Shown piece by piece: positions 8,708-23,569 of a DNA stretch of 40,492 nt. The DNA comes from a virus (taxonomy: Duplodnaviria; Heunggongvirae; Uroviricota; Caudoviricetes): positions 1 to 40,492 of IMG/VR virus record IMGVR_UViG_2541047891_000004; one strand, 5' to 3'. The translations under genes and the position numbers were made by a program. Position 1 is the first letter of the stretch. Every line of letters starts with the position of its first letter. The notes beneath the pieces are model-generated. The model was not told the DNA's origin. It saw only the letters and a program-made list of their open reading frames with translations, and made no database searches.

Positions 8708-8729
8708 AACATCAAGAGGCAAATGATTC

Positions 8730-9152: not shown

Positions 9153-9164
9153 GCAAAAGTTTCC

Positions 9165-10022: not shown

Positions 10023-10028
10023 CTGACC

Positions 10029-10775
10029 ATGAAAAATATTGCGGCTGGAGGCATTCTTGAACGTATCCGCAGACTGGCCCCGCCACATGTAACCGCCCCA
10101 TTCAAAACGGTAGCGGAGTGGCGCGAGTGGCAACTTTCCGAAGGCCAGAAACGTTGTGAGGAGATCAACCGTCAGAATCGTCAGTTGCGGGTGGAAAAAA
10201 TTCTGAATCGCTCTGGCATCCAGCCATTGCACCGCAAATGCTCGTTTGCGAATTACCAGGTGCAGAACTACGGTCAGCGATACGCGTTGAACCAGGCGAA
10301 ATCTATCGCTGATGAACTGATGACCGGGTGTACAAATTTTGCGTTCAGCGGAAAACCTGGTACCGGAAAAAACCATCTGGCGGCGGCTATCGGGAATCGC
10401 CTGCTGAAAGATGGCCAGACAGTGATTGTGGTTACCGTGGCTGATGTCATGAGTGCTCTACACGCCAGCTATGACGACGGGCAATCAGGCGAAAAATTTT
10501 TGCGGGAACTGTGCCAAGTGGATCTGCTGGTTCTTGATGAAATTGGCATTCAGCGCGAGACAAAAAACGAGCAGGTGGTGCTGCACCAGATTGTTGATCG
10601 ACGGACAGCGTCGATGCGTAGCGTGGGAATGCTGACAAACCTGAACTATGAGGCCATGAAAACATTGCTCGGCGAGCGGATTATGGATCGCATGACCATG
10701 AACGGCGGGCGATGGGTGAATTTTAACTGGGAGAGCTGGCGTCCGAATGTCGTCCAGCCAGGAATTGCGAAGTGA
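10029..10775 (+). CDS. ydaV: DnaC-like helicase loader ATPase YdaV (248 aa)
   Basis: Walker [12 protein letters not shown] and Walker B LLVLDEIG. Confidence 0.85.
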
Positions 10776-10797
10776 TTTTTACCGGGAGGAAATTTTA

Positions 10798-11559
10798 ATG
10801 GAAACCGTTTTTGATGCACTGAAAGCAATGGGAAAAGCCACGTCGGTAGAACTGGCTGCGCGACTTGATATCAGTCGTGAAGAAGTGCTGAACGAGCTGT
10901 GGGAACTTAAAAAGGCTGGCTTCGTTGATAAAAGCGTATACACCTGGCGTGTGGCTGATAACAACGTTCAGCAGGAACAGCCAGAGCAGGCAGAACTGCC
11001 GGAAGAAACCACCACGGCAACAGTAGCGAAAATCTCAGAGTGCGATTTAACCGCGACGATTGAACAACGTGGCCCACAAACGGCGGATGAACTGGCTACG
11101 TTTTTCAGCACCACATCACGCAAAGTGGCTTCAACGCTGGCAATGGCAATCAGCAAAGGCCGTCTGATTCGCGTTAATCAGAACGGTAAATTTCGTTACT
11201 GCATGCCGGGCGATGATTTACCAGCAGAGCCGAAAGCTGCATCGGTAACGGAAACTGATGGTAAAGCCTTTCCTCAGCCTGCATGTGTTGTTTTACCAGT
11301 ACAGGAGGCTGCAATACAGGAAGAAATTAAAACAGAAACTGTGGCGGACATTGTGCAGCCGCTGCCATCGTTCACTGAAACGCGAGCAGATGACCTGGTT
11401 TTACCATCGCTGCATATGGCAAACCGCGAACTGCGTCGGGCGAAAAATCATGTCCAGAAGTGGGAGCGAGTCTGCGCCGCGCTGCGGGAGCTGAACAAGC
11501 ACCGGGATATTGTTCGACAGATTTTCGATTCCTCCAGTCGTATTGTGTCGGAAAAGTGA
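10798..11559 (+). CDS. YdaW-like phage protein, intact (253 aa)
   Basis: Start at ATG 10798 preceded by GGGAGGA; two winged-helix-like segments guessed from sequence. Confidence 0.55.
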
Positions 11560-11574
11560 TTGCCGGAGGCACCT

Positions 11575-11997
11575 ATGGCAAAAGTATTTACACCAGAAGA
11601 GCGGGAAAAAATTAAAGGGCAGGTTGTTGAACTTGTACGTCTGAGCGGTCGCGAGACGTTACGACAACTGGAAGCCAAGACAGGTGCGACAAGATATCTG
11701 ATGAGCATTCTCGCCAGGGAGCTGGTTGCCAGTGGTGATGTATACAACTCTGGCTACGGGTTATTCCCGTCTGAACAGGCCCGTAAGGACTGGCAAAACG
11801 CCCGCAAAAAACTCTCAAGGGCAAAGGTGAAAAAAACGGTTGTGGTTGATCCTGACCTTATCTGGTCATTACCTGACGGAGAAATACGTCGCTACGACAG
11901 GCGTCAGAACATAATCTGCCGTGAGTGCCGGAAGAGCGAAGTTATGCAGCGTGTACTGGCGTTTTATCAGGGGAATTTTGAGGAGGTGATGTTGTGA
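11575..11997 (+). CDS. Hypothetical phage protein (141 aa)
   Basis: ATG 11575 preceded by GGAGG; stop overlaps the next gene's GTG start. Confidence 0.5.
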   Translation: MAKVFTPEEREKIKGQVVELVRLSGRETLRQLEAKTGATRYLMSILARELVASGDVYNSGYGLFPSEQARKDWQNARKKLSRAKVKKTVVVDPDLIWSLPDGEIRRYDRRQNIICRECRKSEVMQRVLAFYQGNFEEVML

Positions 11998-12482
11998 GTG
12001 CGTCGGCTACCATTCTCGACATGTGCTGTGGCAGTCGCATGTTCTGGTTTGATAAGAATGACGAACGGGCGATATTTAGCGATATCAGAAAAGAAGAGCA
12101 CACATTGTGTGATGGACGACGCCTGATTATCTGTCCTGACCTGATAGCAGATTTTCGAGCATTACCATTTGCAGACGCATCGTTTCCGGTTGTTGTATTC
12201 GACCCTCCGCATCTTGAGCGTATTGGTGATAATGCCTGGATGGGAAAGAAATATGGACGGCTGAATAAAGATACCTGGCGTGATGATTTGCGGCAGGGAT
12301 TTAAAGAAGCCTTTCGTGTGTTGTGGCCACATGGCGTTCTGATTTTTAAATGGAATGAAACGCAAATACCTGTTCGCCAGATATTGGCACTGACCGACAG
12401 AAAGCCTGTTATCGGTCAACGAACAGGAAAGGGTGACAAGACCCACTGGATTCTTTTTATGAAGGAGGCATCCAGTGAGTAG
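11994..12482 (+). CDS. Putative small orphan DNA methyltransferase (N6-adenine type, 162 aa)
   Basis: GTG start with AGGAGG 7 nt upstream; motif I-like LDMCCGS and motif IV-like VVFDPPH. Confidence 0.5.
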   Translation: MSASATILDMCCGSRMFWFDKNDERAIFSDIRKEEHTLCDGRRLIICPDLIADFRALPFADASFPVVVFDPPHLERIGDNAWMGKKYGRLNKDTWRDDLRQGFKEAFRVLWPHGVLIFKWNETQIPVRQILALTDRKPVIGQRTGKGDKTHWILFMKEASSE

Positions 12483-12566
12483 GTTCGTAAGGTTACAGAT
12501 ACGTATATCTGAATAATTAAATTTAGCACTGTAAATAAAATAGAATCCTTAACCGGAGGAATATCT

Positions 12567-12779
12567 ATGTCAAATATTCAGAAAACCATTAACACTGAAA
12601 AATATAACGAGTGGGTGAAAAAATTCTCTGAGCAGATTCTTAAAATAACTGGTGACGAGAATGTGGCAAAAAATGAATTAGAACCGTGGACACCTGAAGG
12701 AACCGACCCAAATTATTGCTGGTGGGAGGTTGATCCTGTTGATGCTGCAAATGAAGCCATGAGTTACCACAACGATTAA
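12567..12779 (+). CDS. Hypothetical protein (70 aa)
   Basis: ORF with GGAGG RBS in an AT-rich stretch. Confidence 0.45.
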   Translation: MSNIQKTINTEKYNEWVKKFSEQILKITGDENVAKNELEPWTPEGTDPNYCWWEVDPVDAANEAMSYHND

Positions 12780-12841
12780 TGTCGGGATGCCGCCCGAAAG
12801 GGCGGTAATAAAAATGGCTGAACTAATCGGAGAACAAAACG

Positions 12842-13030
12842 ATGAAAAACCGTAAAGCAAAAATTCTTTTGACCTGTAGAAACATTCGCGGCGTCCAGCA
12901 ATGGTTAAAACTCAGTAACCGCAGAATGGGGCTGTTCACAAACACGGCTGATATCGTGATGTGTTCTCTTAACAAGCCCAGCGCGGCGCAAAACCGCTGG
13001 AAAAACCACTTGCGTACTAAAGGAGAGTGA
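12842..13030 (+). CDS. Hypothetical small basic protein (62 aa)
   Basis: ORF ending in the KGE-stop junction repeat; weak evidence. Confidence 0.3.
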   Translation: MKNRKAKILLTCRNIRGVQQWLKLSNRRMGLFTNTADIVMCSLNKPSAAQNRWKNHLRTKGE

Positions 13031-13031
13031 T

Positions 13032-13241
13032 ATGGCTATTGCCGCAAGTTACACCATGCATCTCTATTGTGACTGCCGCCAGTGTACGGAAGGTGTATAT
13101 CCAGTGCCAGACTTCGGTGAGTATATCGGTACGTCATGGTCTGGTTGTGCAAAAGAGGCCCGTAAAGACGGGTGGCGAATAAGTAAAGACAAAACGCGTG
13201 CTTTTGCGCCCGGGCATAAAGTTTTGAGGGTTAACAAATGA
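13032..13241 (+). CDS. Hypothetical Cys-rich small protein (69 aa)
   Basis: AAAGGAGAGTGAT-ATG RBS/start; CDCRQC...C motif. Confidence 0.5.
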   Translation: MAIAASYTMHLYCDCRQCTEGVYPVPDFGEYIGTSWSGCAKEARKDGWRISKDKTRAFAPGHKVLRVNK

Positions 13242-13750
13242 CCACTATTACCAGAGAACAAGCTCTGAAAATTATTGAGGCAGCCGATGAGGTTATTAGT
13301 GCGCTTGCCGGAACTAACGAGGATGTTCACCCTGGTAGCGATAACATGCTACGCCTGTGGGATGACCTGAATGACCGTTACGCTCCCCCGGAAGTAGTGC
13401 GTGAGCTGGCACGAATTGTGCTGGCATTGCTGGAAGCAGAGCCGACAGCGTGGCGATATCGCTACGTGAAAAAAGGCATTACGGACTCACAGGGGGAGCC
13501 GTGGGTTGGTGACTGGAAATATGTACCGACAAAAGAGGATTGCAACGACAGACCGAACTATGAAATTCAGGCGTTATTCACCGCTCCACCTGTGCCACTG
13601 ACACCAGAAGGATTGATTAAAGCAGTGCGCTTCTATGAACTGGTAAAGCGTGAGAATCCGCCAGCCGAAACCGGAGCATGGAAAGACGCTATTGACTGGG
13701 TGCTCAAAGAGGCTTGCCAAGCTGTAAACATTGGCATCAAAGGAGAGTGA
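13238..13750 (+). CDS. Hypothetical phage protein (170 aa)
   Basis: ATGA overlap with upstream gene; shares MTT(I/F)T start and (F/Y)TAPP motif with 14043..14534. Confidence 0.55.
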   Translation: MTTITREQALKIIEAADEVISALAGTNEDVHPGSDNMLRLWDDLNDRYAPPEVVRELARIVLALLEAEPTAWRYRYVKKGITDSQGEPWVGDWKYVPTKEDCNDRPNYEIQALFTAPPVPLTPEGLIKAVRFYELVKRENPPAETGAWKDAIDWVLKEACQAVNIGIKGE

Positions 13751-13751
13751 T

Positions 13752-14039
13752 ATGGCAACTTTGCAGGAATTAATCGACCTGACGCCAGAACAGGAAAAAG
13801 CGTGGAATCGCCTTGTGAAGGCTGTAAAGGATTTCAGGGCAGCCGGAGGAAAGTTTTATAGCGTCCTGGACACGCTGAGCGCATACAACGGCGAGCACGT
13901 TGCCAGCATTGATAACGATAAGGGCTACCACACTGCAAGCGTCTATATGCCTAGCATTGATGCGCCAGGGCTAACCAGTTGGGCTGATGATTGGCACGGC
14001 ATCACGCTGAAAGATGGCGTTGAAGTGGATGAGGACTAA
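13752..14039 (+). CDS. Hypothetical phage protein (95 aa)
   Basis: Start at ATG 13752 behind the repeated AAAGGAGAGTGAT RBS element. Confidence 0.5.
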   Translation: MATLQELIDLTPEQEKAWNRLVKAVKDFRAAGGKFYSVLDTLSAYNGEHVASIDNDKGYHTASVYMPSIDAPGLTSWADDWHGITLKDGVEVDED

Positions 14040-14042
14040 CAC

Positions 14043-14534
14043 ATGACAACTTTCACCGACAAAGAACTGATTAAAGAAATCAAAGAGCGCATAGGCAGCC
14101 TAGACGTGCGAGACAATATTGAGCGCCGGGCTTATGAAATAGCGTTAGCCTCGCTGGAAGCTGAACCGGTGGTTTACATGTGGGATAGTGAAAGAAAAGA
14201 TATTGATGCCCCTGGGTATTATCGGACTGAGCATTTAGTGTTCGCTGAGAGTAGTGTTAAGCAATGGGGAGGGCGAGTTGTTCCACTTTACACCGCCCCG
14301 CCAGCGACGGTAGCTCCAGATGGTTGGATAAGCTGTAGTGAGCGAATGCCAGATAGCAAAACAGCCGTTCTTGTTGCCAGGGAGTTTGACAGGAAAGGTG
14401 ACTGGAGAATGAAATGGGCGACTTACATCCCGGGGCATCCTGACGCTAATGATGGGTGGGTAATACCTAGTGCGTCGTGGATACCATCACACTGGATGCC
14501 GCTACCGGAACCACCGCAGGAGGTGAATCAATGA
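14043..14534 (+). CDS. DUF551-like phage protein (163 aa)
   Basis: C-terminal Trp-rich region WISCSERMP...WIPSHWMPLPEPP resembles DUF551; paralog of 13238..13750. Confidence 0.55.
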   Translation: MTTFTDKELIKEIKERIGSLDVRDNIERRAYEIALASLEAEPVVYMWDSERKDIDAPGYYRTEHLVFAESSVKQWGGRVVPLYTAPPATVAPDGWISCSERMPDSKTAVLVAREFDRKGDWRMKWATYIPGHPDANDGWVIPSASWIPSHWMPLPEPPQEVNQ

Positions 14535-14614
14535 CTTGGCCTGAGGCATTCACCACGGTAGGAATTGCGATGGCGGTGGCGCTGGTGGTGTATTCGATTT
14601 GCCGCTGGGGTTGA
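14531..14614 (+). CDS. Possible small hydrophobic peptide (27 aa)
   Basis: ATGA-coupled to upstream stop; MTWPEAFTTVGIAMAVALVVYSICRWG has one predicted TM helix. Confidence 0.25.
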   Translation: MTWPEAFTTVGIAMAVALVVYSICRWG

Positions 14615-14742
14615 CGATAATGAATATGTAAAGTTATATTTTCAGTGTGGTCGTGGTAGCGATCACACGGTTGTTGTTCGTCGCAATGGTATTAAAGGTT
14701 GCTTAGTGCAATTCAGTACATAAGCAGCTATAAGGACTGAAA

Positions 14743-15039
14743 ATGAAATTCACGGGGTTACAATCTTCTGAGTTGCCTGATACCTCTGATGCAGTAAAAG
14801 AGTGTGTGAATCTTGGGCAATGGATGCTTTTCAAATCCAATAGTTACAGGATTACCGTGGAAATGACATTTTTTCTAAAAACCGGTAATGATATCTTTGG
14901 CATGAATGAGCGAGGGCAGATTATGCCCACAAGAATTACCGAACACTTGAGTATTGATGAAGTGTTTTATTTTAGTGATTTACCAAGACCATCATCACTC
15001 AGTAATACAGTGTTCTCTGGATATAATTTTAATCTTTAA
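14743..15039 (+). CDS. Hypothetical protein (98 aa), upstream partner of the caspase-like peptidase
   Basis: AAGGA RBS 6 nt before ATG; AT-rich; 25-nt gap to the next gene. Confidence 0.5.
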   Translation: MKFTGLQSSELPDTSDAVKECVNLGQWMLFKSNSYRITVEMTFFLKTGNDIFGMNERGQIMPTRITEHLSIDEVFYFSDLPRPSSLSNTVFSGYNFNL

Positions 15040-15064
15040 TTAAGTACATTTCGAACCACCAAGG

Positions 15065-15967
15065 ATGTATATGAGTCTTAGGTCTGAACGCACAAGGTGG
15101 GTGATGTTTTTGCCTTGTTCGGAAGCTGCCGTGGAATTTCGTCATGTTGTCGATTTAGTCTTTGGTGTGATGTGCCTCGAAAAGGCAGGCATCAATCCAG
15201 ATGATATTTCGATATATATAGATAGCCCTTCAATGAATTACGATGGTGCTTTTGCACTCGCTTCTAAATATCCTTTTAAGTCAAAACCATCAGCAGTTTT
15301 TTTTAATGACTTAAATGATAATACATATGATAACATAGTTATGTTTGTAACTGGTCATGGTGGCCCTCATGGACTTGATGCAAAGAAACCTATCCCACCA
15401 AGCCAATTACTGAAGGCTTTGAAGGAAGCCCCAAATCTTAAAAATGCTGTTGTTTATCTTGGGCAATGCTATGCCGGGACCTTTAATTTTGTAGGTGCTG
15501 GTAAACGGAACGAGTTTGAAGCCGATGTGATCTTAATCGGCGCGACTAATCTTAATGAAAGTCTTAGTTCTGGTACTTCAGAAACATTTGCTAATGGGGT
15601 GGTGTTTCCTTGGTCAGCAAATATTTTTCTTCTACATGTTTTTAAATGGATGTCATCTCCTACAGATATTGATGGTGATGGATTATACACTGTGATGGAT
15701 TCTTATAAACATGCAGGAATTTATACGAACTATGTTAATAAAAGAATTAAAAGCGAAGGTTTTAGCGATATAATTGATATGCATGCTGAATGCAATAGAC
15801 TCAAAGCTCTTGCCTCTATTGAAACAGGAGATTTTAATGTTGACTTTAAAAATAAAATGGAATTTGACGCTAAGAAATCTCAGTTTGACAATCTACTAAC
15901 TATACATCATACACATCAGGAGTGCTGGATTTTAAACTCACGCCCGGCACAAAAAATAGAGTTTTAG
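15065..15967 (+). CDS. Caspase-like (clan CD) cysteine peptidase domain protein (300 aa)
   Basis: Strand plus His-Gly (NIVMFVTGHGGPHG, His98) then strand plus Cys 37 residues later (AVVYLGQCYAG, Cys135); alternative start ATG 15071. Confidence 0.6.
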   Translation: MYMSLRSERTRWVMFLPCSEAAVEFRHVVDLVFGVMCLEKAGINPDDISIYIDSPSMNYDGAFALASKYPFKSKPSAVFFNDLNDNTYDNIVMFVTGHGGPHGLDAKKPIPPSQLLKALKEAPNLKNAVVYLGQCYAGTFNFVGAGKRNEFEADVILIGATNLNESLSSGTSETFANGVVFPWSANIFLLHVFKWMSSPTDIDGDGLYTVMDSYKHAGIYTNYVNKRIKSEGFSDIIDMHAECNRLKALASIETGDFNVDFKNKMEFDAKKSQFDNLLTIHHTHQECWILNSRPAQKIEF

Positions 15968-16072
15968 TTTTATATTTAATTTATTTGTGAATTTGAGTCT
16001 TGTTTCAAGATAGATTAAAAAATGATTTCTGGCTAAAGGGAAATTAAGTAAAATTGCTGCGGGTGCTTGAGG

Positions 16073-16108
16073 CTATCTGCCTCGGGCATGAACACCAACG
16101 GCAGATAG
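16073..16108 (+). repeat. Perfect 9-bp inverted repeat (CTATCTGCC/GGCAGATAG) with 18-nt loop upstream of hok
   Basis: Read directly from sequence; lies in the predicted hok mRNA leader. Confidence 0.6.
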
Positions 16109-16207
16109 ATAAAAGCCCCACCCGACTATAAATCGAAGTGAGGCCCCTATATGCTCGTCACATATAGATTGCCTCTTACGGACCGAAAGGTCAAGGAGAA
16201 GCAGGCT

Positions 16208-16363
16208 ATGAAGCAGCAAAAGGCGATGTTAATCGCCCTGATCGTCATCTGTTTAACCGTCATAGTGACGGCACTGGTAACGAGGAAAGACCTCTGCGAG
16301 GTGCGAATCCGAACCGGCCAGACGGAGGTCGCTGTCTTCACAGCTTACGAACCTGAGGAGTAA
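16208..16363 (+). CDS. hok: Hok/Gef-family type I toxin (51 aa)
   Basis: MKQQKAMLIALIVICLTVIVTALVTRKDLCEVRIRTGQTEVAVFTAYEPEE recognised as Hok family; in-frame upstream extension from 16151 occupies the mok-like leader. Confidence 0.85.
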   Translation: MKQQKAMLIALIVICLTVIVTALVTRKDLCEVRIRTGQTEVAVFTAYEPEE

Positions 16364-16434
16364 GAGTGACCAGGCGGGAGAGTAATCTCCCGCCACCTCT
16401 GATGTGTCAGGCATCCTCAACGCACCCGCACTTA

Positions 16435-16458
16435 ACCCGCTTCGGCGGGTATATTTTA
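16435..16458 (+). terminator. Intrinsic terminator after hok
   Basis: ACCCGC-TTCG-GCGGGT hairpin followed by ATATTTTA. Confidence 0.55.
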
Positions 16459-16831
16459 TCTGTGAATATTTTTATAAAAATAATGCCCACGCACAGCATA
16501 AAACAAAAAGTATTACAGATAAAAAAGGAACGTAATGTGCAGATTTGTTGTTTTCCATATTTACTTACCTTAATATGATTAATCCTGATAGGGTTGTTAT
16601 TTCAACGGTTTTCAAATGAGATATTATGGTGATCTGGCAGATTTGCATAACATTAAAATTTAATTTGTTTAACCGCTTTTAATAATAAGCGTTGTTTTTA
16701 TCCCAGCAATCTGTTGTTTGGTTTTTATTCCATCAATGTGGGGGCTTTACACTGGAATCAGTTTATTTATACTTTATACGTCAGCCTGAACAACTGGCAT
16801 CTGCTGCACTGCGCCATCGAGAGATTGAGAA

Positions 16832-17431
16832 ATGGCGCATATACAACTGGTCAAACAAACCTCTTCTGGTTTACTTCTCCCGGCGACGCCGGAGAGTTGC
16901 GATTTTCTGCATCAAATCAAAATAGGTGAGTGGATACACGCAGACTTTAAGCGTGTGCGTAACTACGCATTCCACAAGCGTTTTTTCAAACTCCTGCAAC
17001 TGGGATTCGATTACTGGACTCCGGTCGGTGGGGCGATCACGCCTCGCGAACGAGAACTGCTGTCTGGTTTCGTGGATTACCTGTGCGAATCAGTTGGTCG
17101 GGAACACACACCAGCCCTGAGTGATGCCGCAGAGCAATATCTAAATACAGTTGCGACACGCAGAACCCGGGATACGGCATTGCTAAAATCGTTTGAGGCT
17201 TTCCGCGAGTGGGTAACCATTCAGGCCGGATTTTACACCGAGCATCTTTATCCTGATGGTAGCCGTGGGCGTCGGGCGAAATCTATCGCGTTTGCGAATA
17301 TGGACGAAACCGTGTTTCAGCAGGTTTATAAATCTGTACTGAATGTGCTGTGGAACTGGATTCTGTTCCGTAAATTTTCCTCTCCGGAACAAGTCGAAAA
17401 TGTGGCCGCGCAGCTGCTGGAGTTTGCGTAA
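16832..17431 (+). CDS. Conserved phage nin-region protein of unknown function (199 aa)
   Basis: Long ORF upstream of and translationally coupled to the ybcO-like gene (TAATGG overlap). Confidence 0.6.
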   Translation: MAHIQLVKQTSSGLLLPATPESCDFLHQIKIGEWIHADFKRVRNYAFHKRFFKLLQLGFDYWTPVGGAITPRERELLSGFVDYLCESVGREHTPALSDAAEQYLNTVATRRTRDTALLKSFEAFREWVTIQAGFYTEHLYPDGSRGRRAKSIAFANMDETVFQQVYKSVLNVLWNWILFRKFSSPEQVENVAAQLLEFA

Positions 17432-17721
17432 TGGTGGACTTACGTAAAGCGGCGCGGGGGCAGATGTGCACCGTCAGAATTCCTGGCTACTGCAATCACG
17501 ATCCGGAAACGTCTGTGCTGGCGCATTACCGACTGGCGGGAACGTGCGGAACAGCGATAAAGCCACACGATATGCAGGCAGCGATTGCCTGTAGCTCGTG
17601 CCACGATTTAATCGACGGGCGGGTAAAAACCAGCGATTACACCAAAGAAGAATTACGCCTGATGCATGCAGAAGGTGTTTTTCGCACACAAGAAATCTGG
17701 AGAAAGGAGGGATATTTATGA
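17431..17721 (+). CDS. ybcO: YbcO-like putative zinc-binding nuclease (DUF1364-like, 96 aa)
   Basis: Cys/His-rich CTVRIPGYCNH...CSSCHD; same size and position as lambdoid YbcO. Confidence 0.7.
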   Translation: MVDLRKAARGQMCTVRIPGYCNHDPETSVLAHYRLAGTCGTAIKPHDMQAAIACSSCHDLIDGRVKTSDYTKEELRLMHAEGVFRTQEIWRKEGYL

Positions 17722-18254
17722 TTTACCCAACGAATACAGGAAAAAGCGGAGAACACCTTCGTCTCACCACGCTGGAAAGTGTCTGGATTCAGGGAAAACT
17801 ACGTATGTGGGGGCGCTGGTCGTATATTGGCGGCGGCAGGTCAGGGAATATGTTTAACCAGTTGCTGGCATCCCAAAAAATGACAAAAACAGCCATCAAT
17901 GAAGCCCTGCGCAGATTGAAAAAAGCGGGAATTGATAAACCAGAGTTGGAAGCATTTTTGCGTGAGATGATCGAAGGAAAGCAAAAAAGCTGGTTAACTC
18001 ACTGCACTGATGCAGAGGCACTAAAAATTGATAGTGTTATAGGTGAAGTTCTGGCGGATCATCCAGGACTACTAAATGTCCTGAGTCAGCGTTATGTGGG
18101 GCGAGGGATGAGTAAGAGAAGGATGGCAGAGTTATTAAACGAACAGTACCCAGAGTGGGCGTTGATTACATGCCGACGTCGTGTTGATCAGTGGTTGCGT
18201 GTTGCTGAGTTCATTTTGTATTCACCTATGAGAGAAGCGTTCGATTATGCTTAA
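17718..18254 (+). CDS. Putative late-gene antiterminator Q-like protein (178 aa)
   Basis: Start at ATG 17718 with GGAGG RBS; RMWGRW segment resembles Q-family proteins; last gene before terminator, tRNAs and lysis genes. Confidence 0.55.
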   Translation: MIYPTNTGKSGEHLRLTTLESVWIQGKLRMWGRWSYIGGGRSGNMFNQLLASQKMTKTAINEALRRLKKAGIDKPELEAFLREMIEGKQKSWLTHCTDAEALKIDSVIGEVLADHPGLLNVLSQRYVGRGMSKRRMAELLNEQYPEWALITCRRRVDQWLRVAEFILYSPMREAFDYA

Positions 18255-18349
18255 AAAATCATTGCAAAATGAGCCACAAACTGCTTCAATTTCGGTAAGC
18301 TTCGCATAGCTGTATCGCGAGGCAAATTAAGCGCATGAACTTTAATACA

Positions 18350-18378
18350 ACCCGCCATTGAGCGGGTTTTGTTGTTTC
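18350..18378 (+). terminator. Intrinsic terminator downstream of Q (tR'-like candidate)
   Basis: CCCGC-CATTGA-GCGGG hairpin followed by TTTTGTTGTTT. Confidence 0.6.
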
Positions 18379-18616
18379 TGTGGCGTGATATCAGAAACGA
18401 CATTTAATAATCGCCTTCAAAATAAATTTGTTTATACATTGTCATGTATATTTTAAGTGAAAGTGAATTATTCACATAAAATAAAAACATATAAATAAAT
18501 TTACACAACTTGACACAAAGTGTTGTTGCGATTGGAATATTAAATCGTATCATCGAAAACGGTTCTGAGGGGGAACTCTTCTTTGCTCGGTGATATCGCT
18601 CCCCTGAAGAACCAAT

Positions 18617-18692
<76 letters not shown>

Positions 18693-18695
18693 TAT

Positions 18696-18770
<75 letters not shown>

Positions 18771-19132
18771 GCATTTGAAACAAGCCTTATTGTATTGCGG
18801 CACTGGCGTATTTTTTTATTACGTGGGAGCAGGTTGTTTTGAAAAAGCATTCTGTTCTCTGGCTATGATTTGAGGCCGGGTGTAGCCTCAGTGCTGATTT
18901 TTTACGGCAGCAGAATGGTGCATTATCGGTGGAGATTTTGTATTTCCTGGCAGGGTCGGTGATGCATCATTCTGGTGTTGTAAAAGCACCGCAGAGGCGT
19001 TCCTCAGGGCGAGGGTGGTTTAAAGAGTCGGTTTAGCGGGAAACCACAGTATCCATACAGCACGGAATACTTCGGGAGGCACCCGACGCCTCGGTTTAAT
19101 AACAATTAAAAAATTCATCCCTTGCATTGACC

Positions 19133-19158
19133 AACCGCCATATCTGGCGGTTTTTTTT
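19133..19158 (+). terminator. Intrinsic terminator in the Q-to-lysis noncoding interval
   Basis: CCGCCA-TATC-TGGCGG hairpin followed by T8. Confidence 0.65.
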
Positions 19159-19485
19159 ATTCCTTTCTCAGGACAAAAAAAGACACGAGCATCCAGGAAT
19201 ACTCGTGGGACAACGTCCTTTGGATAGCAATTTGCGAGAGGGTGAAAAGTAGCGCGGTCGTCGGATTAAGACCGCGGGACAAAGTCCATGAAGAATAATA
19301 AGTATTGGCCCCCTTCCGGGGACATGTTCATACTACTAAGCTTCAGAAGTGGTTTAAATCCTCAAATTAACCTTAATTTCCGATAAGTCTTATTTCATTT
19401 CTTTGCGCCACATCTGGTGCGCATCAAATAACGCCACGCAAAGGGCATCTGCGGATGCCGGTGCTTTTGACGGGGTGTTTTTTAC

Positions 19486-19507
19486 GGGCCGCTGGTGGCC
19501 CTTTTTT
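19486..19507 (+). terminator. Intrinsic terminator immediately upstream of the holin gene
   Basis: GGGCC-GCTGGT-GGCCC hairpin followed by TTTTTTATTT; holin RBS begins 7 nt later. Confidence 0.65.
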
Positions 19508-19526
19508 ATTTACAGGAGAAAAAAGT

Positions 19527-19919
19527 ATGTCTGAACCCTTATCCGGTTCCGGCACGGCTGTGGCGCTCGGCGGGGCGACGGTATTCGGGCTGTTTACCGG
19601 AACGGATTTCGGGATTGTGTTTGGTGCGTTCGCTGGGGCGTTATTTGTGGCAACGATGCCGCAGGCGCTTTCAGCCTGGCGTGTGGCGGCGCATTTTCTG
19701 GTGTCGTTCATTATCGGCGTGCTGGGCGCAGAGGTTCTGGCATCCTGGCTGGTAAAGCATACAGGGTTTGACGGTGCGCCTGTCGACGCACTGTGTGCAG
19801 TGCTGGTGTCAGTGGTGTCGGTGAAGATTCTCTCGTTCATCCACCAGCAGGATATTGCATCACTGGTGTCCGGCCTGTTCTCCCGTCTGCGGGGTGGAGG
19901 AGGCGGCAATGTTAAGTAA
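19527..19919 (+). CDS. Putative holin / lysis membrane protein (130 aa)
   Basis: AGGAG RBS; Gly-rich protein with several hydrophobic helices; first gene of the lysis cassette. Confidence 0.55.
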   Translation: MSEPLSGSGTAVALGGATVFGLFTGTDFGIVFGAFAGALFVATMPQALSAWRVAAHFLVSFIIGVLGAEVLASWLVKHTGFDGAPVDALCAVLVSVVSVKILSFIHQQDIASLVSGLFSRLRGGGGGNVK

Positions 19920-20187
19920 CATTCCCGGATTGCTGAATGTAGCGTTATGCACGGTTATCGTGCTGACGCTCTTTTTTTATCGTCGCCGTGATTCCAGACA
20001 TAAACCGCTGATGTCATGGCTGGCCTGGCTGCTGATGCTGCTGTATGCCTTTGCGCCCCTCAGCTATCTGTGTGGTCGCCCGTTAGCAACGGGCTGGCTG
20101 GAAGTGCTTTTTAACCTGCTGTTCTGCGTGCTGGTGATACGCGCACGTGGGAACGTCACAAAAATCTTTGTATTACGAAGGCGCTGA
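19909..20187 (+). CDS. Putative holin-associated membrane protein (92 aa)
   Basis: Three hydrophobic segments; overlaps upstream gene and ends 1 nt before the endolysin start. Confidence 0.5.
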   Translation: MLSNIPGLLNVALCTVIVLTLFFYRRRDSRHKPLMSWLAWLLMLLYAFAPLSYLCGRPLATGWLEVLFNLLFCVLVIRARGNVTKIFVLRRR

Positions 20188-20188
20188 T

Positions 20189-20734
20189 ATGAAGTCGAAA
20201 GATGAAATTTTTGACGAAGTTCTGGGAAAAGAGGGCGGTTACGTCAATCACCCGGATGATAAAGGCGGACCGACAAAATGGGGTATTACGGAAAAAGTCG
20301 CCCGCGCTCACGGATATCAGGGCGATATGCGTGACCTGACACGCGAACAGGCGCTGGAAATCCTTGAGGCGGATTACTGGTTCGGACCACGCTTTGATCA
20401 GGTGGCCGCATTATCCTCTGATATTGCTGCAGAGTTGTGTGATACCGGTGTGAATATGGGGCCGTCCGTAGCATCGAAAATGCTCCAACGCTGGCTGAAC
20501 GTTTTCAACCTGCAAGGCAAATTGTTCCCGGATATGGACGCAGACGGGCGTATCGGCCCCCGCACGATTAATGCACTACGGACTTATCTGCAAAAACGTG
20601 GCAAAGACGGCGAACTGGTGATGCTGAAGGCGCTGAATTGCACGCAGGGCGACCGCTATCTGGAGCTGGCAGAAAAACGCGAGGCCAACGAGTCGTTTGT
20701 CTACGGCTGGATGAAAGAGCGCGTAGCAGTTTAA
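20189..20734 (+). CDS. Endolysin, GH108 lysozyme-like domain with C-terminal peptidoglycan-binding domain (181 aa)
   Basis: GH108 signature GKEGGYVNHPDDKGGPTKWGIT near the N-terminus. Confidence 0.8.
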   Translation: MKSKDEIFDEVLGKEGGYVNHPDDKGGPTKWGITEKVARAHGYQGDMRDLTREQALEILEADYWFGPRFDQVAALSSDIAAELCDTGVNMGPSVASKMLQRWLNVFNLQGKLFPDMDADGRIGPRTINALRTYLQKRGKDGELVMLKALNCTQGDRYLELAEKREANESFVYGWMKERVAV

Positions 20735-20838
20735 AAACTGACGCTGAAGTGCTGAACACCCTCAACTCACGCAGGCTCTTTTCTGGGGTTACGATGAGTG
20801 AAAGTAAGGGGTACAGCATCAAGCATCAGATAGCAAAA

Positions 20839-20868
20839 ACCCCGGCTGCTGGAACAGTCCGGGGTTTT
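20839..20868 (+). terminator. Intrinsic terminator after the endolysin
   Basis: CCCCGG-13 nt loop-CCGGGG followed by TTTTT. Confidence 0.6.
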
Positions 20869-20960
20869 TAGTTTTCACGTCAAAGAGGAAATTGTGAGTA
20901 GTGAGTACGGAGAAAATCCTCGTGGGAAAGTATAAAAGATTCTTTTTGAGGTTGTCCATT

Positions 20961-21074
20961 ATGAAAGGTATTGAAGTGGAAACTCCCGCGAGCCTTGATT
21001 TGACAAGGGCTGCGGCCTTTGCAATTCGCCTTGTGGCGGTCGCTGTTCTGATTTGGGCTGTGCGTTGGTGGTGA
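20961..21074 (+). CDS. Possible small membrane peptide (37 aa)
   Basis: MKGIEVETPASLDLTRAAAFAIRLVAVAVLIWAVRWW; stop 1 nt before the lipoprotein start. Confidence 0.3.
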   Translation: MKGIEVETPASLDLTRAAAFAIRLVAVAVLIWAVRWW

Positions 21075-21075
21075 T

Positions 21076-21258
21076 ATGAGCCGAAAACACTGGACACACA
21101 GAATGCCGCGAGCGGCGGCAAAATGGGCACTGGTAGCGATACTGGTGCCTTTTTTATTGGTGGGGTGCGTCAGCCTGGATAAGGCGCGCCAGCTTTTCGA
21201 TACAGCTTCTCAGGTCTGCGAAATTGTTGATAGTGTCCGGCGGTGTATGCAGAACTGA
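21076..21258 (+). CDS. Small lipoprotein (60 aa), possible lysis accessory
   Basis: Positively charged N-region, hydrophobic core WALVAILVPFLLVG, lipobox LVGC; mature part about 30 aa with 3 Cys. Confidence 0.5.
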   Translation: MSRKHWTHRMPRAAAKWALVAILVPFLLVGCVSLDKARQLFDTASQVCEIVDSVRRCMQN

Positions 21259-21431
21259 TCGCCTGTAAGAGCAGAATATTTTGCTGAAAAATGAAGGATG
21301 CGCCAGCGTCCGGAAAGCATGAAATTCTGCTGCATGTGCCAATTTTATCTTATTCATTCTAAATCTTGCCGAATCAAGATGAAATTTGAACAACTGCCCA
21401 GCGGCAAGGGGCATTAAAACAGGAGAAAATT

Positions 21432-21539
21432 ATGTGGAAACCTACAGGTGACAAGTTAATCACCGCGTTGATTGACGGCAAGCCACAATACTTACGCATT
21501 GAAATGAGTGGTCAGCATGCTCGTTTGATTCGTGAGTAA
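21432..21539 (+). CDS. Possible small protein (35 aa)
   Basis: AGGAGA RBS 7 nt upstream; hairpin GCAGCCC/GGGCTGC follows. Confidence 0.3.
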   Translation: MWKPTGDKLITALIDGKPQYLRIEMSGQHARLIRE

Positions 21540-21601
21540 CAGGCATTACAGCAGCCCTTCAGTGTGAGGGGCTGCGATAATGTCAAAGCTCGTTATCATC
21601 A

Positions 21602-21645
21602 CCCGCCGCGCACCCAGCGCACTGGCCGATAGCGGGCTTTTTTAT
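21602..21645 (+). terminator. Putative intrinsic terminator upstream of the ParB-like gene
   Basis: Outer stem CCCGC/GCGGG around inner hairpin CCAG-CGCA-CTGG, followed by CTTTTTTATT. Confidence 0.4.
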
Positions 21646-21662
21646 TCATAAAGCGAGTCTGT

Positions 21663-22454
21663 ATGAGCGAGAAATTGAAGATCGTCTATCGCCCTTTACA
21701 AGAACTGTCTCCGTATGCACACAACGCCAGGACACACAGCACTGAGCAGGTGGCACAACTGGTAGAAAGCATTAAGCAATTCGGCTGGACTAATCCGGTG
21801 CTGATTGATGAAAAGGGCGAAATTATTGCTGGTCACGGTCGCGTTATGGCGGCTGAAGTGCTCAAAATGGATTCCATTCCGGTCATCGTTCTGTCTGGTT
21901 TGATGGATGATCAGAAAAAGGCGTACCGCCTGGCAGATAATCGCCTGCCGATGAATGCTGGCTGGGATGAAGATCTGTTACGGATGGAGCTGTCGGACCT
22001 AATCAATGCTGATTTTGATGTCTCCCTGACAGGCTTCAGCCCGACAGAAATTGATGAACTGTTGACGGATGTTTTGCCCGGTACAGAAAATGAGGAGGAG
22101 CCGTATACGACGAAAATTGATACACCTGTTTATGAGCCGTCAGGCGATAAACCGGATATCGGCGAACTGTACGACGATACGAAAACTCAGGAGCTGGTCA
22201 GCCGGATACGTTCGGCGTCCCTTGATCCTGATATCGAAAAATTCCTCCTGTGTGCGGCAGAACGCCACACAGTGTTTAATTTCAGCAGAATTGCGGACTA
22301 TTACGCTCACGCCCCCGCTGAAATTCAGTGTTTTTTCGAGGAGTCGGCACTGGTGATCATTGATTATCAGCAGGCTATTGAAAATGGATTTGTCCGGATG
22401 ACGCAGCGCATGGTGGAGATCATGCATGGTGGTGAGGAGGAGGAATATGCGTGA
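21663..22454 (+). CDS. ParB-like nuclease domain protein (263 aa)
   Basis: N-terminal ParB/Srx signature including IIAGHGR; C-terminal 150 aa unassigned. Confidence 0.7.
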   Translation: MSEKLKIVYRPLQELSPYAHNARTHSTEQVAQLVESIKQFGWTNPVLIDEKGEIIAGHGRVMAAEVLKMDSIPVIVLSGLMDDQKKAYRLADNRLPMNAGWDEDLLRMELSDLINADFDVSLTGFSPTEIDELLTDVLPGTENEEEPYTTKIDTPVYEPSGDKPDIGELYDDTKTQELVSRIRSASLDPDIEKFLLCAAERHTVFNFSRIADYYAHAPAEIQCFFEESALVIIDYQQAIENGFVRMTQRMVEIMHGGEEEEYA

Positions 22455-23379
22455 TGATTTTTGCGCCTTTATTCTGACTCACGGGCGACCGGACAAAGTT
22501 CTGACTTACCGGACGTTGCGTCGTGCTGGCTATACCGGGAAAATTTTTATCGTTGTTGATGATGAAGATAAGACACGGCATCAGTACATGGCTGAATTTG
22601 GTGAACAGGTGCTGGTGTTTTCCAAAGCCGATATCGCCAGTCGTTTTGACGAAGCCGATAATTTCTGTGACCGCCGCTCAATTTTTTACGCCCGTAATGC
22701 CTGTTTCGACCTGGCAAAACTGGTCGGGTGTAAATACTTCATTCAGCTCGATGATGATTATCACGAGTTTCAGTTTCGGGTGGATCGCAACTATGACCAG
22801 GCCTATTTTCCGATAAGGAAACTGGATGCGATCCTTTCTGAAATGCTGGCGTATTACGAATCAATACCTGCTCTTTCCATCGCTATGTCGCAGGGCGGGG
22901 ATTTTCTTGGTGACAATGGCGGCCATGCTTCATGGGTGAAACGCAAGGCAATGAACAGCTTTATCTGTTCGGTCGAGCGACCGTTCTCATTCATGGGGCG
23001 CATTAACGAGGATGTGAATACGTACACGAATCTCGGTCGCCGTGGTGAATTGTTTATGACGATCGGTGCTGTCCAGTTAGGGCAGAAACAGACGCAGAAA
23101 AACAGCGGCGGAATGACCGAGCTGTATCTGGATTCCGGAACCTACGTTAAAAGTTTTTACTCCGTCATGTATGCGCCGTCGTGCGTAAAAATCTCACTGA
23201 TGGGTGCCAGCCATAAACGCATTCACCATCAGGTCACCTGGAACAACGCTGCAGTAAAAATCCTTCACGAAAAATACAGGAAGAAGACACCCTGCATATC
23301 AATGGGGGTGACAAATGATTCCGTATTCGAAAGTCGAGTCTCTGGCAGCGTGCCGGATGACTGCACAACAAATAGCTGA
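22447..23379 (+). CDS. GT-A fold (family 2-like) glycosyltransferase-like protein, apparently soluble (310 aa)
   Basis: AFILTHGRPD and KIFIVVDDED N-terminal strands, then FYARNACFDLAKLVGCKYFIQLDDDY (ARN...DxD); GAGGAGGAGG RBS; 8-nt overlap with ParB-like gene. Confidence 0.55.
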   Translation: MRDDFCAFILTHGRPDKVLTYRTLRRAGYTGKIFIVVDDEDKTRHQYMAEFGEQVLVFSKADIASRFDEADNFCDRRSIFYARNACFDLAKLVGCKYFIQLDDDYHEFQFRVDRNYDQAYFPIRKLDAILSEMLAYYESIPALSIAMSQGGDFLGDNGGHASWVKRKAMNSFICSVERPFSFMGRINEDVNTYTNLGRRGELFMTIGAVQLGQKQTQKNSGGMTELYLDSGTYVKSFYSVMYAPSCVKISLMGASHKRIHHQVTWNNAAVKILHEKYRKKTPCISMGVTNDSVFESRVSGSVPDDCTTNS

Positions 23380-23566
23380 CGTTCTGGATGTTGATCTGAA
23401 CCGACTGAAAGAAAATCGGGAAGCAATGACAAATTTTTATGCGTCCATCCGTAAGGGCAGAGCGAAAGGTGAAGCCGAGCTACGGGCGGCATTGTTTAAG
23501 CTTGCCAGAAAAGGGGATGCCTTTGCCCTGCGCGAACTACTCAGGGTGGATAAAAATCAGGACTAA
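23315..23566 (+). CDS. Small putative DNA-binding protein (83 aa)
   Basis: ORF overlapping the 3' end of the GT-like gene and ending 4 nt before terS; start uncertain. Confidence 0.4.
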   Translation: MIPYSKVESLAACRMTAQQIADVLDVDLNRLKENREAMTNFYASIRKGRAKGEAELRAALFKLARKGDAFALRELLRVDKNQD

Positions 23567-23569
23567 CTG

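What the first reader, a model, noticed from the sequence alone, without database searches (positions are those of the whole stretch)
16060..16460. Hok/Gef-family type I toxin locus embedded in the prophage next to the caspase-like island
16208..16363 encodes a 51-aa Hok-family toxin with an in-frame upstream leader ORF (from 16151) in the mok position, a perfect 9-bp inverted repeat in the leader (16073..16108), and a 3' hairpin plus terminator (16369..16390, 16435..16458). With the caspase-like pair this forms a roughly 2.2-kb AT-rich accessory island between the nin genes and ybcO/Q. A Sok-type antisense RNA is expected on the minus strand near the leader but I cannot place it by eye.
Basis: partly seen in the sequence, partly recalled or inferred. 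Interest (0 to 1): 0.55.

Follow-up and report, generated by a model that had tools for sequence, protein, structure and literature searches.

The report
Intact prophage hok/mok/sok toxin–antitoxin module

Summary
16208..16363 encodes a 51-aa Hok/Gef peptide (Pfam 82.9 bits) that is 51/51 identical to E. coli K-12 HokD. The leader 16061..16210 matches Rfam RF01794 at 103.9 bits.

All parts of the classical hok design are present in a 398-nt mRNA (16061..16458):
- tac/fbi 5'-3' closure
- ucb, mok SD and dcb boxes
- an in-frame mok ORF from 16151
- a protective 3' stem-loop (16373..16394, not 16369..16390)
- a terminator

Folding reproduces the published switch between the closed full-length form and the open truncated form.

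By position, compared with the annotated sokW (phage 933W) and sokC (K-12), Sok lies on the minus strand. Its -35 is TTGACC (16194..16189), its -10 is CAATCT (16171..16166), its start is G16159, and it ends near 16111..16106.

This exact leader occurs in about 600 complete E. coli genomes, including O157:H7. PGAP already names the gene hokD. hok enrichment in prophages is published.

The caspase-like pair is a separate ~1.4-kb insertion just upstream, not one unit with hok.

Verdict: already known, low interest. Expression, toxicity in context and biological role were not testable here.

The parts
16026..16054 (+). hok promoter: -35 TTTCTG (16026..16031), 17-bp spacer, -10 TAAAAT (16049..16054); transcription start inferred at G16061
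   Evidence: Positional homology with relatives that carry TTTGCG-17-TAGAAT, and with hokC (TATAAT), just upstream of the conserved GGGTGCTTGAGG 5' end. The -35 is weak, so the consensus promoter scan did not flag it.
16061..16458 (+). Full-length hok mRNA (398 nt)
   Evidence: The Rfam RF01794 match starts at 16061. The terminator ends near 16458. The fold is -164.7 kcal/mol, z=-6.75.
16061..16072 (+). tac (translational activator element), the 5' end of the mRNA
   Evidence: It pairs with 16415..16427 at p=0.97-1.00 in the full-length RNA. In 3'-truncated RNA it pairs with 16113..16119 (ucb) at p=0.74-0.98. All 12 pairs are invariant in 11 relatives.
16073..16108 (+).
   Evidence: I1. It is present in all folds. 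Pairs at alignment columns 13-21/41-49 are kept in 11 relatives, with one compensatory change.
16113..16121 (+). ucb (anti-SD box)
   Evidence: It pairs with the mok SD region 16138..16144 at p=0.99 in the full-length RNA, and is captured by tac in the truncated RNA.
16140..16143 (+). mok Shine-Dalgarno GAGG, 7 nt before the mok ATG
   Evidence: Sequence. It is sequestered by ucb in the full-length RNA and pairs with dcb in the truncated RNA.
16147..16167 (+). Sok target hairpin carrying the mok AUG (CUAUAUG / loop CUCGUCA / CAUAUAG)
   Evidence: I7; p=0.99. An equivalent hairpin forms in relatives from different sequence. The loop contains CUCG, a YUNR motif.
16151..16363 (+). mok ORF (70 aa, in frame with hok, same stop codon)
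   Evidence: The same in-frame arrangement is annotated for mokW in 933W and mokC in K-12. The start position is conserved in all relatives although the frame varies.
16171..16175 (+). dcb (downstream complementary box, GCCUC); overlaps the Sok -10 on the other strand
   Evidence: It pairs with the mok SD at p=0.57-0.73 in truncated RNAs. The published dcb also overlaps the Sok promoter (PMC9841398).
16193..16198 (+). hok Shine-Dalgarno AAGGAG
   Evidence: Sequence. Its 3' half is paired with 16175..16177 at p=0.92-0.95 in the full-length RNA.
16208..16363 (+). hok ORF, 51-aa Hok/Gef toxin, identical to K-12 HokD
   Evidence: Pfam PF01848, 82.9 bits. 51/51 identity to K-12 HokD. Annotated hokD, WP_000813254.1, in the 100%-identical SC418 locus.
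16346..16349 (+). TACG (Tyr47 codon plus G): TadA A-to-I editing motif that would recode Tyr to Cys
   Evidence: TACGAA is invariant in all 11 relatives while neighbouring codons vary. The motif and editing of hokC/D/E are described in bioRxiv 10.1101/2025.08.07.668861. Editing was not tested here.
16373..16394 (+). 3' stem-loop (GGCGGGAGA / GTAA / TCTCCCGCC); expected 3'-terminal protective hairpin of the processed mRNA
   Evidence: I4. Three of its pairs show compensatory changes among relatives (columns 341/354, 343/352, 344/351). The role is inferred from R1 mutagenesis (PMC9841398).
16415..16427 (+). fbi (fold-back inhibitory element, CCTCAACGCACCC)
   Evidence: It is complementary to tac with one bulged C (I2/I3), p about 1.0, and conserved in 11 relatives.
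16435..16458 (+). Intrinsic terminator of the hok mRNA
   Evidence: ACCCGCTTCGGCGGGT followed by ATATTTTAT.
16166..16194 (-). Sok promoter: -35 TTGACC (16194..16189), 17-bp spacer, -10 CAATCT (16171..16166)
   Evidence: It has the same geometry as sokW (TTGCCT-17-TAACCT). The primers for the promoter-less sokW mutant in PMC8621323 replace exactly that hexamer. It also matches sokC (TTGACC-17-CACTCT). The -10 is weak (2 of 6), so the consensus scan did not flag it.
16108..16159 (-). Predicted Sok antisense RNA (about 49-54 nt): 5' single-stranded tail, long hairpin, GGGGCUUUU tail. The 5' end, G16159, lies 9 nt inside mok
   Evidence: sokW and sokC are both annotated as starting 9 nt inside their mok genes. 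The window RNA folds at -21.4 kcal/mol, z=-4.87, with the same architecture as sokW and sokC. Its hairpin keeps pairing through three compensatory changes relative to the long-hairpin variants (columns 62/100, 64/97, 65/96). The transcript itself was not observed.

Best explanation
**What it is.** The region 16026..16458 is a complete, self-contained hok/mok/sok type I toxin-antitoxin cassette. It is a 'moron' in the nin region of a Rac-like lambdoid E. coli prophage.

**Shown from sequence and folding.**
- A promoter with a good -10 (TAAAAT) and a weak -35 would drive a 398-nt mRNA.
- In the full-length RNA the 5' end (tac) is locked to the 3' fbi box.
- In that form the mok ribosome-binding site is hidden by the upstream ucb box, and part of the hok ribosome-binding site is also paired.
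- When the 3' ~45 nt are removed in silico, tac switches to ucb and the mok SD pairs with the weaker downstream dcb box. A 7-bp hairpin carries the mok AUG.

**Inferred from the R1, hokC and hokW paradigms.**
- Slow 3' exonucleolytic trimming, stopping at the 16373..16394 stem-loop, produces this translatable form.
- Ribosomes translating mok (here an in-frame 19-codon extension) open the hok start, and the 51-aa membrane toxin is made.
- A short, unstable antisense Sok RNA is transcribed from TTGACC-17-CAATCT on the minus strand, running from 16159 to about 16108.
- Sok pairs with the mok start region of the processed mRNA, blocks mok/hok translation and triggers RNase III cleavage.
- The toxin therefore appears only when Sok synthesis stops.

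**Likely biological role (inference, about 35-40%).** As shown for hokW-sokW of Sp5, Sok would be lost and Hok produced on prophage induction, helping lysis and phage release. Stabilisation of the prophage is the main alternative.
For: **Family identity.**
- Pfam HOK_GEF 82.9 bits; PHROG 'MokW-like host killing'; Rfam RF01794 103.9 bits.
- The peptide is 51/51 identical to K-12 HokD, which is toxic in published assays.

**Architecture.**
- tac/fbi pairing has p about 1. SD/ucb pairing has p=0.99 in the full-length RNA. In truncated RNAs tac/ucb has p=0.74-0.98 and SD/dcb has p=0.57-0.73. This matches the mechanism summarised in PMC9841398.
- Fold z-score is -6.75.
- Across 11 relatives there are 115 consensus pairs, 9 of them with compensatory changes, including the Sok/ucb hairpin and the 3' stem-loop.

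**Sok placement.**
- Promoter geometry, start position and RNA architecture are the same as for annotated sokW and sokC.
- The sokW promoter and antitoxin function were tested experimentally (PMC8621323).

**Conservation.**
- The identical 111-nt leader is found at >=99% identity in 595 complete-genome records.
- The cassette is 97.8% identical in the O157:H7 PPompW prophages and 86% identical to hokW of 933W.
Against: - No transcript, processing, toxicity or antitoxin data exist for this locus.
- The Sok -10 (CAATCT) matches consensus at only 2 of 6 positions, and the hok -35 is weak. The consensus promoter scan found neither promoter.
- The equilibrium fold of truncated RNA shows the switch for this short-hairpin variant but not for most long-hairpin relatives, including the functional hokW. 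In-silico switching is therefore not a reliable indicator of activity.
- The role in lysis is extrapolated from a locus that is 86% identical and sits elsewhere in its phage.
Confidence: 0.88

Rival explanations
1. The locus is structurally intact but biologically silent. It would resemble the K-12 chromosomal hok loci: carried along with the prophage, never activated, and providing no stabilisation or lysis function.
For: [quoted passage not shown]
- Both promoters deviate from consensus.
Against: - Every regulatory box is intact, and the structure is maintained by compensatory changes.
- The exact leader is fixed in about 600 complete genomes.
- The related prophage locus hokW-sokW is functional and affects phage release.
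- hok genes are about four-fold enriched in prophages.
Confidence: 0.25
2. The main role is addiction: post-segregational killing that stabilises the prophage or the adjacent variable cargo slot. Cells that lose the element run out of Sok and are killed by Hok made from the long-lived mRNA.
For: - This is the classical role of R1 hok/sok, and a role proposed for type I TAs in prophages.
- The cassette abuts a slot holding different cargo in different prophages: the caspase-like pair here, DUF262 + AAA ATPase in E. coli W, and Paa adhesin in PPompW.
Against: - Chromosomal homologues failed post-segregational killing tests.
- For hokW the measured phenotype was on induced lysis and phage release; a maintenance phenotype was not among the results I read.
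- Nothing was tested here.
Confidence: 0.2
3. It acts as an abortive-infection or superinfection-exclusion module. A superinfecting lytic phage shuts off host transcription, Sok decays, and Hok kills the cell before progeny are released.
For: R1 hok/sok on a high-copy plasmid reduced T4 plating (cited).
Against: - There is no PADLOC match.
- The published survey found hok not enriched near defence systems (section title).
- The T4 effect needed a high-copy plasmid.
Confidence: 0.1
4. It is an orphan hokD like the K-12 relF gene, that is, a toxin ORF without mok/Sok control.
For: The protein is identical to K-12 HokD, and PGAP names it hokD.
Against: - In K-12, similarity to this locus begins only at the hok SD, because relBE replaces the leader.
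- Here the full leader, mok, the Sok promoter and the Sok hairpin are all present.
Confidence: 0.03

Closest known systems
hokW-mokW-sokW of Stx2 phage 933W / Sakai prophage Sp5 (AF125520; Takada et al. 2021, PMC8621323)
   Same: - It is also a lambdoid-prophage hok cassette, 86% identical over about 410 nt.
- It has the same in-frame 70-aa Mok, the same tac and fbi sequences, the same Sok start 9 nt inside mok, and a GGGGCUUUU Sok terminator.
- The small hydrophobic ORF upstream is also shared.
   Different: - The window's Sok/ucb hairpin is 21 nt shorter.
- The Sok 5' tail and target loop differ: GACGAGCAUAUAGG here against GUUCAGCAUGGAUU in sokW.
- The Sok -10 is CAATCT here, not TAACCT.
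- Hok differs in its last 8 residues: TAYEPEE here against VDYESEK.
- A 1.4-kb insertion separates the window cassette from the upstream ORF.
'gef/hokD' cassette of the PPompW prophage of E. coli O157:H7 (e.g. LC567818)
   Same: - It is 97.8% identical across 16044..16450.
- The leader, Sok region and Hok peptide are identical.
- This leader is found at >=99% identity in 595 complete-genome records.
   Different: - The 3' UTR stem-loop and the downstream flank in the window are of the E. coli W type instead.
- The upstream neighbour there is the paa adhesin gene rather than the caspase-like pair.
hokC (gef)/mokC/sokC of E. coli K-12
   Same: - It has the same element order, an in-frame Mok, a short Sok hairpin of similar length, and a Sok promoter TTGACC-17-CACTCT.
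   Different: - It lies in the core chromosome, and in K-12 IS186 is annotated beside it.
- The leader and 3' UTR sequences have diverged, and my fbi search pattern did not find a match in the K-12 hokC tail.
hokD (relF) of the K-12 Qin prophage
   Same: - The toxin is identical (51/51), and the 3' UTR with fbi and terminator is almost identical.
   Different: - K-12 hokD lacks tac, ucb, the mok start and the Sok region. Upstream of the hok SD the sequence is the end of relE. The window holds the complete form of the locus.
hok/mok/sok (parB) of plasmid R1, the paradigm
   Same: - It has the same set of elements and the same Sok position and architecture. The Rfam family is the same.
   Different: - According to PMC8621323, HokW and R1 Hok share about 44% identity. 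I did not compute the identity for this locus.
- In R1, mok is out of frame (+1) with hok.
- It is plasmid-borne, with a stronger Sok -10 (TATCCT).

Membership tests
hok/sok (Hok/Gef) type I toxin-antitoxin | Small hydrophobic Hok/Gef peptide | tested here: met
   Pfam PF01848, 82.9 bits against a cut-off of 22; 51/51 identity to K-12 HokD.
hok/sok (Hok/Gef) type I toxin-antitoxin | Conserved structured hok mRNA leader | tested here: met
   Rfam RF01794, full-length match 1-157, 103.9 bits against a gathering score of 59.
hok/sok (Hok/Gef) type I toxin-antitoxin | mok reading frame with its own SD, starting upstream of hok and overlapping it | tested here: met
   GAGG at 16140..16143, ATG at 16151, 70 codons running through hok. 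The start position is conserved in 13 loci compared, including R1 and hokC.
hok/sok (Hok/Gef) type I toxin-antitoxin | Long-range tac/fbi pairing that closes the full-length mRNA | tested here: met
   16061..16072 pairs with 16415..16427: 12 pairs with one bulge, p about 1. The pairs are invariant in 11 relatives.
hok/sok (Hok/Gef) type I toxin-antitoxin | mok SD sequestered by ucb in the full-length RNA; tac/ucb and SD/dcb pairings in the 3'-processed RNA | tested here: met
   The in-silico partition function for the full-length RNA and three truncations reproduces both states. This is thermodynamic prediction only.
hok/sok (Hok/Gef) type I toxin-antitoxin | cis-encoded antisense Sok gene opposite the mok start, with its own promoter and terminator | tested here: met
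   TTGACC-17-CAATCT, start at G16159, hairpin plus GGGGCUUUU; same geometry as annotated sokW and sokC. This is met at the sequence level. The -10 is weak, and the transcript was not observed.
hok/sok (Hok/Gef) type I toxin-antitoxin | Sok RNA expressed and unstable, and it neutralises hok | not testable with these tools
   This needs Northern blot, RNA-seq and genetics. It has been shown for sokW (PMC8621323).
hok/sok (Hok/Gef) type I toxin-antitoxin | Toxicity of the peptide | not testable with these tools
   The identical peptide, K-12 HokD, is listed among the previously characterised toxic controls in bioRxiv 10.1101/2025.08.07.668861.
hok/sok (Hok/Gef) type I toxin-antitoxin | 3' exonucleolytic processing to a truncated, translatable mRNA | not testable with these tools
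   Only the predicted stop structure is seen: the stem-loop 16373..16394, which covaries among relatives.
hokD (relF) locus as defined in K-12 Qin | hok ORF lying downstream of relBE without its own leader, mok or sok | tested here: not met
   There is no relBE here and the complete leader is present. K-12 similarity starts at the hok SD. 'hokD' applies to the protein only.

The most novel reading that the evidence does not exclude
Two related ideas are not excluded.

1. **Insulated specificity classes.** The Sok recognition region (Sok 5' tail, target loop and hairpin) averages about 70% identity among hokD-type loci, against 92-96% for the rest of the cassette. The short-hairpin class seen here carries compensatory changes. 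These variants could be mutually insulated specificity classes that let several hok/sok prophage modules coexist in one genome.

2. **Anchor for a cargo hot spot.** The left edge of the cassette (about 16010..16044) could be a recombination hot spot for cargo. hok would then act as the addiction anchor for whatever sits there, here a caspase-like pair found in only one of 5,426 complete E. coli genomes.
Probability: 0.2. Interest if true: 0.35.

Novelty: already known. Interest (0 to 1): 0.1.

Why it matters
- It matters mainly for annotation. In the database records examined, the leader region carries no annotated feature, so mok and Sok are unannotated, and the name 'hokD' hides the fact that this is the complete, regulated form of the locus. 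The coordinates given here fill that gap.
- It also clarifies the neighbouring caspase-like genes. They are an independent ~1.4-kb insertion, not part of the toxin-antitoxin unit, so any claim about them should be judged on its own.
- Nothing here changes current understanding of hok/sok biology.

Tried and rejected
- **Consensus promoter scan.** It found neither the hok nor the Sok promoter, because both have one weak hexamer. Placement therefore rests on homology.
- **Permissive Rfam search of 15800..16950.** It gave only sub-threshold noise: Phe_leader, a CsrC fragment, and a 20.7-bit minus-strand 'sok' hit.
- **A Pas-type prophage sRNA in the AT-rich 16460..16830 spacer.** I rejected this because the Pas paper places those genes next to the holin/lysozyme genes. 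No rem gene is present in the spacer, unlike phage Rac 442/2 and PPompW.
- **PADLOC.** It gave nothing for Hok, the caspase-like pair or the DUF1367 protein.
- **Window assumed collinear with E. coli SC418.** This first assumption was wrong. Only 8724..24454 is collinear (99.4%) and 1..6672 (97.8%); the late region differs. Annotation coordinates taken are valid only for the middle block.
- **Equilibrium folding of truncated mRNAs as a test of activity.** The switch is predicted for the short-hairpin variants (window, PPompW, Z1323) and one long-hairpin relative (s64.1), but not for the other long-hairpin relatives, including functional hokW. I do not use it as evidence of activity.
- **YUNR motif in the target loop.** It is present here but not in all relatives by simple MFE folding, so it is a weak lead only.

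Full report
**Source and context.** The window is a Rac-type lambdoid prophage of E. coli.
- It starts inside intR and carries xisR, ralR/RalA, recET, kilR, replication genes, a nin-like region, a Q-like gene, two tRNAs and late genes.
- The hok region 16000..16520 is 100% identical to E. coli SC418 (NZ_LR778147.1), where PGAP annotates hokD.
- The window as a whole is a mosaic relative to SC418. Positions 1..6672 match at 97.8% and 8724..24454 at 99.4%. There is no match beyond 24454.
- From 16044 onward it resembles Rac-like prophages of E. coli A41, 042 and others at 97-98%.

**Check of the observation.**
- The 51-codon ORF 16208..16363 and the in-frame ORF from 16151 exist.
- The ORF is a Hok/Gef peptide: Pfam 82.9 bits, E=1.2e-23, and PHROG 'MokW-like host killing'. 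It is 51/51 identical to K-12 HokD.
- The 9-bp inverted repeat 16073..16081 / 16100..16108 is exact.
- The terminator is at 16435..16450 followed by a T-run.
- Rfam RF01794 matches 16061..16210 end to end at 103.9 bits.
- The 398-nt RNA 16061..16458 folds with z=-6.75.

The Rfam model, although named 'sok', describes the sense hok leader. Its + strand hit therefore says nothing about the strand of Sok.

**Anatomy of the mRNA.**
- *Promoter.* By homology with relatives, the hok promoter is TTTCTG-17-TAAAAT (16026..16054) with a start at G16061.
- *Full-length RNA.* The first 12 nt (tac) pair with 16415..16427 (fbi) at probability about 1. The mok SD (GAGG, 16140..16143) pairs with 16115..16121 (ucb) at 0.99. 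The 3' half of the hok SD is paired too.
- *Truncated RNA.* When the RNA is cut at 16412, 16400 or 16396, tac pairs with ucb (0.74-0.98). At 16412 and 16396 the mok SD's most probable partner is GCCUC at 16171..16175 (dcb), at 0.57-0.73; at 16400 dcb pairing is a minor alternative (about 0.28). The mok AUG stays in a 7-bp hairpin at 16147..16167.
- *Match to the literature.* This is the closed full-length / open truncated switch described for R1 hok. It includes the detail that dcb overlaps the Sok promoter (PMC9841398).
- *Conservation.* Across 11 hokD-type loci the consensus fold has 115 pairs, 9 of them with compensatory double changes. Three of those lie in the ucb/SD hairpin and three in the 3' stem-loop. 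All tac/fbi pairs are conserved.

**Placing Sok.**
- In 933W, sokW is annotated on the opposite strand, starting 9 nt inside mokW. In K-12, sokC starts 9 nt inside mokC.
- Reading the minus strand of all loci in register gives the following:

| Locus | -35 | Spacer | -10 |
|---|---|---|---|
| sokW | TTGCCT | 17 | TAACCT |
| sokC | TTGACC | 17 | CACTCT |
| R1 Sok | TTGCGC | 17 | TATCCT |
| window | TTGACC (16194..16189) | 17 | CAATCT (16171..16166) |

- In the window the -10 is followed by ATATGT and then G16159.
- The primers used for the promoter-less sokW mutant in PMC8621323 replace exactly the TAACCT hexamer. That mutant lost antitoxin activity.
- The window RNA from 16159 to about 16106 has a 9-nt free 5' tail, a long hairpin and a GGGGCUUUU tail. 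It folds at -21.4 kcal/mol, z=-4.87. This is the same architecture as sokW and sokC.
- Sok is therefore placed at about 16159..16108 on the minus strand. The -10 is weak (2 of 6) but of the same type as sokC.

**Relatives and distribution.**
- Sequence similar to 16000..16520 occurs in 4,721 of 5,426 complete E. coli genomes, with a median of two places per genome. It also occurs in 524 plasmids and 108 phage records.
- The closest relatives are the PPompW prophages of O157:H7 (97.8%). The annotated hokW/mokW/sokW of 933W is 86% identical.
- The exact 111-nt leader/Sok segment is found at >=99% identity in 595 genome records. None carries an annotated feature under it.
- K-12 hokD shares only the part from the hok SD onward. 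relE replaces the leader there.
- Two leader classes exist. One is a short Sok hairpin (window, PPompW, Z1323, similar in length to hokC). The other is 21 nt longer (hokW, E. coli W, phage Rac 442/2 and others).
- The Sok hairpin and the Sok 5' tail/target loop are the most variable segments, at about 70% mean pairwise identity. The other segments are higher: tac hairpin 92%, Sok promoter/hok SD 92%, hok ORF 96%, and the 3' UTR 85%.
- The target hairpin is nevertheless retained in most relatives.
- The mok start is fixed in position while its frame varies: in frame here and in hokW and hokC, +1 in R1 and phage Rac 442/2. This fits a role for mok translation rather than for the Mok peptide.
- The window cassette looks recombinant. 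Its leader is of the PPompW type, while its 3' UTR and downstream flank are of the E. coli W type.

**Relation to the caspase-like genes.**
- In 933W a small hydrophobic ORF (MTWPEAF...) is followed within a few bases by the hok promoter.
- In the window the homologous ORF ends at 16614-equivalent position 14614, and the hok promoter homology resumes near 16010. This brackets a ~1.4-kb AT-rich insertion that holds the caspase-like pair.
- That insertion is found in only one of 5,426 complete genomes.
- The same slot holds DUF262 + AAA ATPase + a hypothetical gene in E. coli W. It holds the paa adhesin gene in PPompW and Z1323.
- The hok unit is about 52% GC and its flanks 31-39%.
- hok and the caspase-like pair are therefore neighbours in a variable slot, not one island.

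**Mechanism and role.**
- The regulatory mechanism described above is shown only at the level of sequence, folding and homology. Expression, processing and toxicity are inferred.
- For the biological role, the best-documented analogue is hokW-sokW. There sokW disappears and HokW accumulates in the inner membrane after mitomycin C in a RecA-dependent way. Deleting the locus halves phage release.
- Addiction, abortive infection and inertness remain alternatives. Older tests of chromosomal hok loci were negative.

**Novelty.**
- hok/sok is the textbook type I toxin-antitoxin system. hok enrichment in prophages is documented. The gene is already named in RefSeq, and the exact leader is common.
- I rate this as already known, with low interest.

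Noticed in passing
window 14615..16009 (ORFs 14743..15039 and 15065..15967): The caspase-like pair lies in a discrete ~1.4-kb AT-rich insertion between a small conserved hydrophobic ORF and the hok promoter, which are adjacent in phage 933W. By megablast the insertion is found in only 1 of 5,426 complete E. coli genomes. The 300-aa ORF has a weak Pfam Peptidase_C13 hit (27 bits) and no PADLOC or PHROG match. The 98-aa ORF matches phrog_30138, of unknown function.
   Followed up: partly
window 14531..14614 (+): A 27-aa hydrophobic ORF (MTWPEAFTTVGIAMAVALVVYSICRWG) sits immediately upstream of the insertion. It is conserved next to hokW in 933W (MTWPEAFANVG...). It may be a small membrane peptide gene that travels with hok cassettes.
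   Followed up: no
window ~16010..16044 and loci L006, L007, L008: The position just upstream of the hok cassette is a variable cargo slot. It holds DUF262 + AAA ATPase + a hypothetical gene in E. coli W, and the paa adhesin gene in PPompW and Z1323. Similarity to most relatives starts exactly at 16044, inside the hok promoter.
   Followed up: partly
window 1557..1735 (+): There is a full-length RalA antitoxin sRNA match (Rfam RF02694, 219 bits), antisense to the rcbA/DUF1187 homologue next to ralR, as in K-12 Rac. The prophage therefore carries a second type I toxin-antitoxin system.
   Followed up: partly
window 16113..16167 and alignment A2: The Sok hairpin and the Sok 5' tail/target loop are the most variable parts of hokD-type cassettes, at about 70% mean identity against 92-96% for the tac hairpin, Sok promoter region and hok ORF. 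There are two hairpin length classes that differ by 21 nt. Pairing is kept by compensatory changes.
   Followed up: partly
window 16346..16351: TACGAA (Tyr47-Glu48) is invariant in all 11 relatives while adjacent codons vary. This is the TadA A-to-I editing motif reported to recode Tyr to Cys in hokC, hokD and hokE.
   Followed up: no
window 16364..16835 compared with L006 and L007: The window's hok cassette looks recombinant. Its leader is identical to the O157:H7 PPompW type. Its 3' UTR and the 370-nt AT-rich spacer before the DUF1367/NinB-like gene are 99.5% identical to E. coli W. The rem gene found after hok in phage Rac 442/2 and PPompW is absent.
   Followed up: partly
whole window compared with L001: The window is not collinear with the best-matching complete genome (E. 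coli SC418). The segment around 6672..8724 and everything beyond 24454 differ. The late region matches A41/042-type Rac-like prophages.
   Followed up: partly
window 18617..18689 and 18696..18767 (+): Two tRNA genes lie downstream of the Q-like DUF1133 gene. They are annotated Thr and Gly in the matching SC418 record.
   Followed up: no
window 16061..16210: Rfam family RF01794 is named 'sok antitoxin' but models the sense-strand hok mRNA leader up to the hok AUG. Its hit strand is therefore opposite to the real Sok gene, which can mislead automated annotation.
   Followed up: yes
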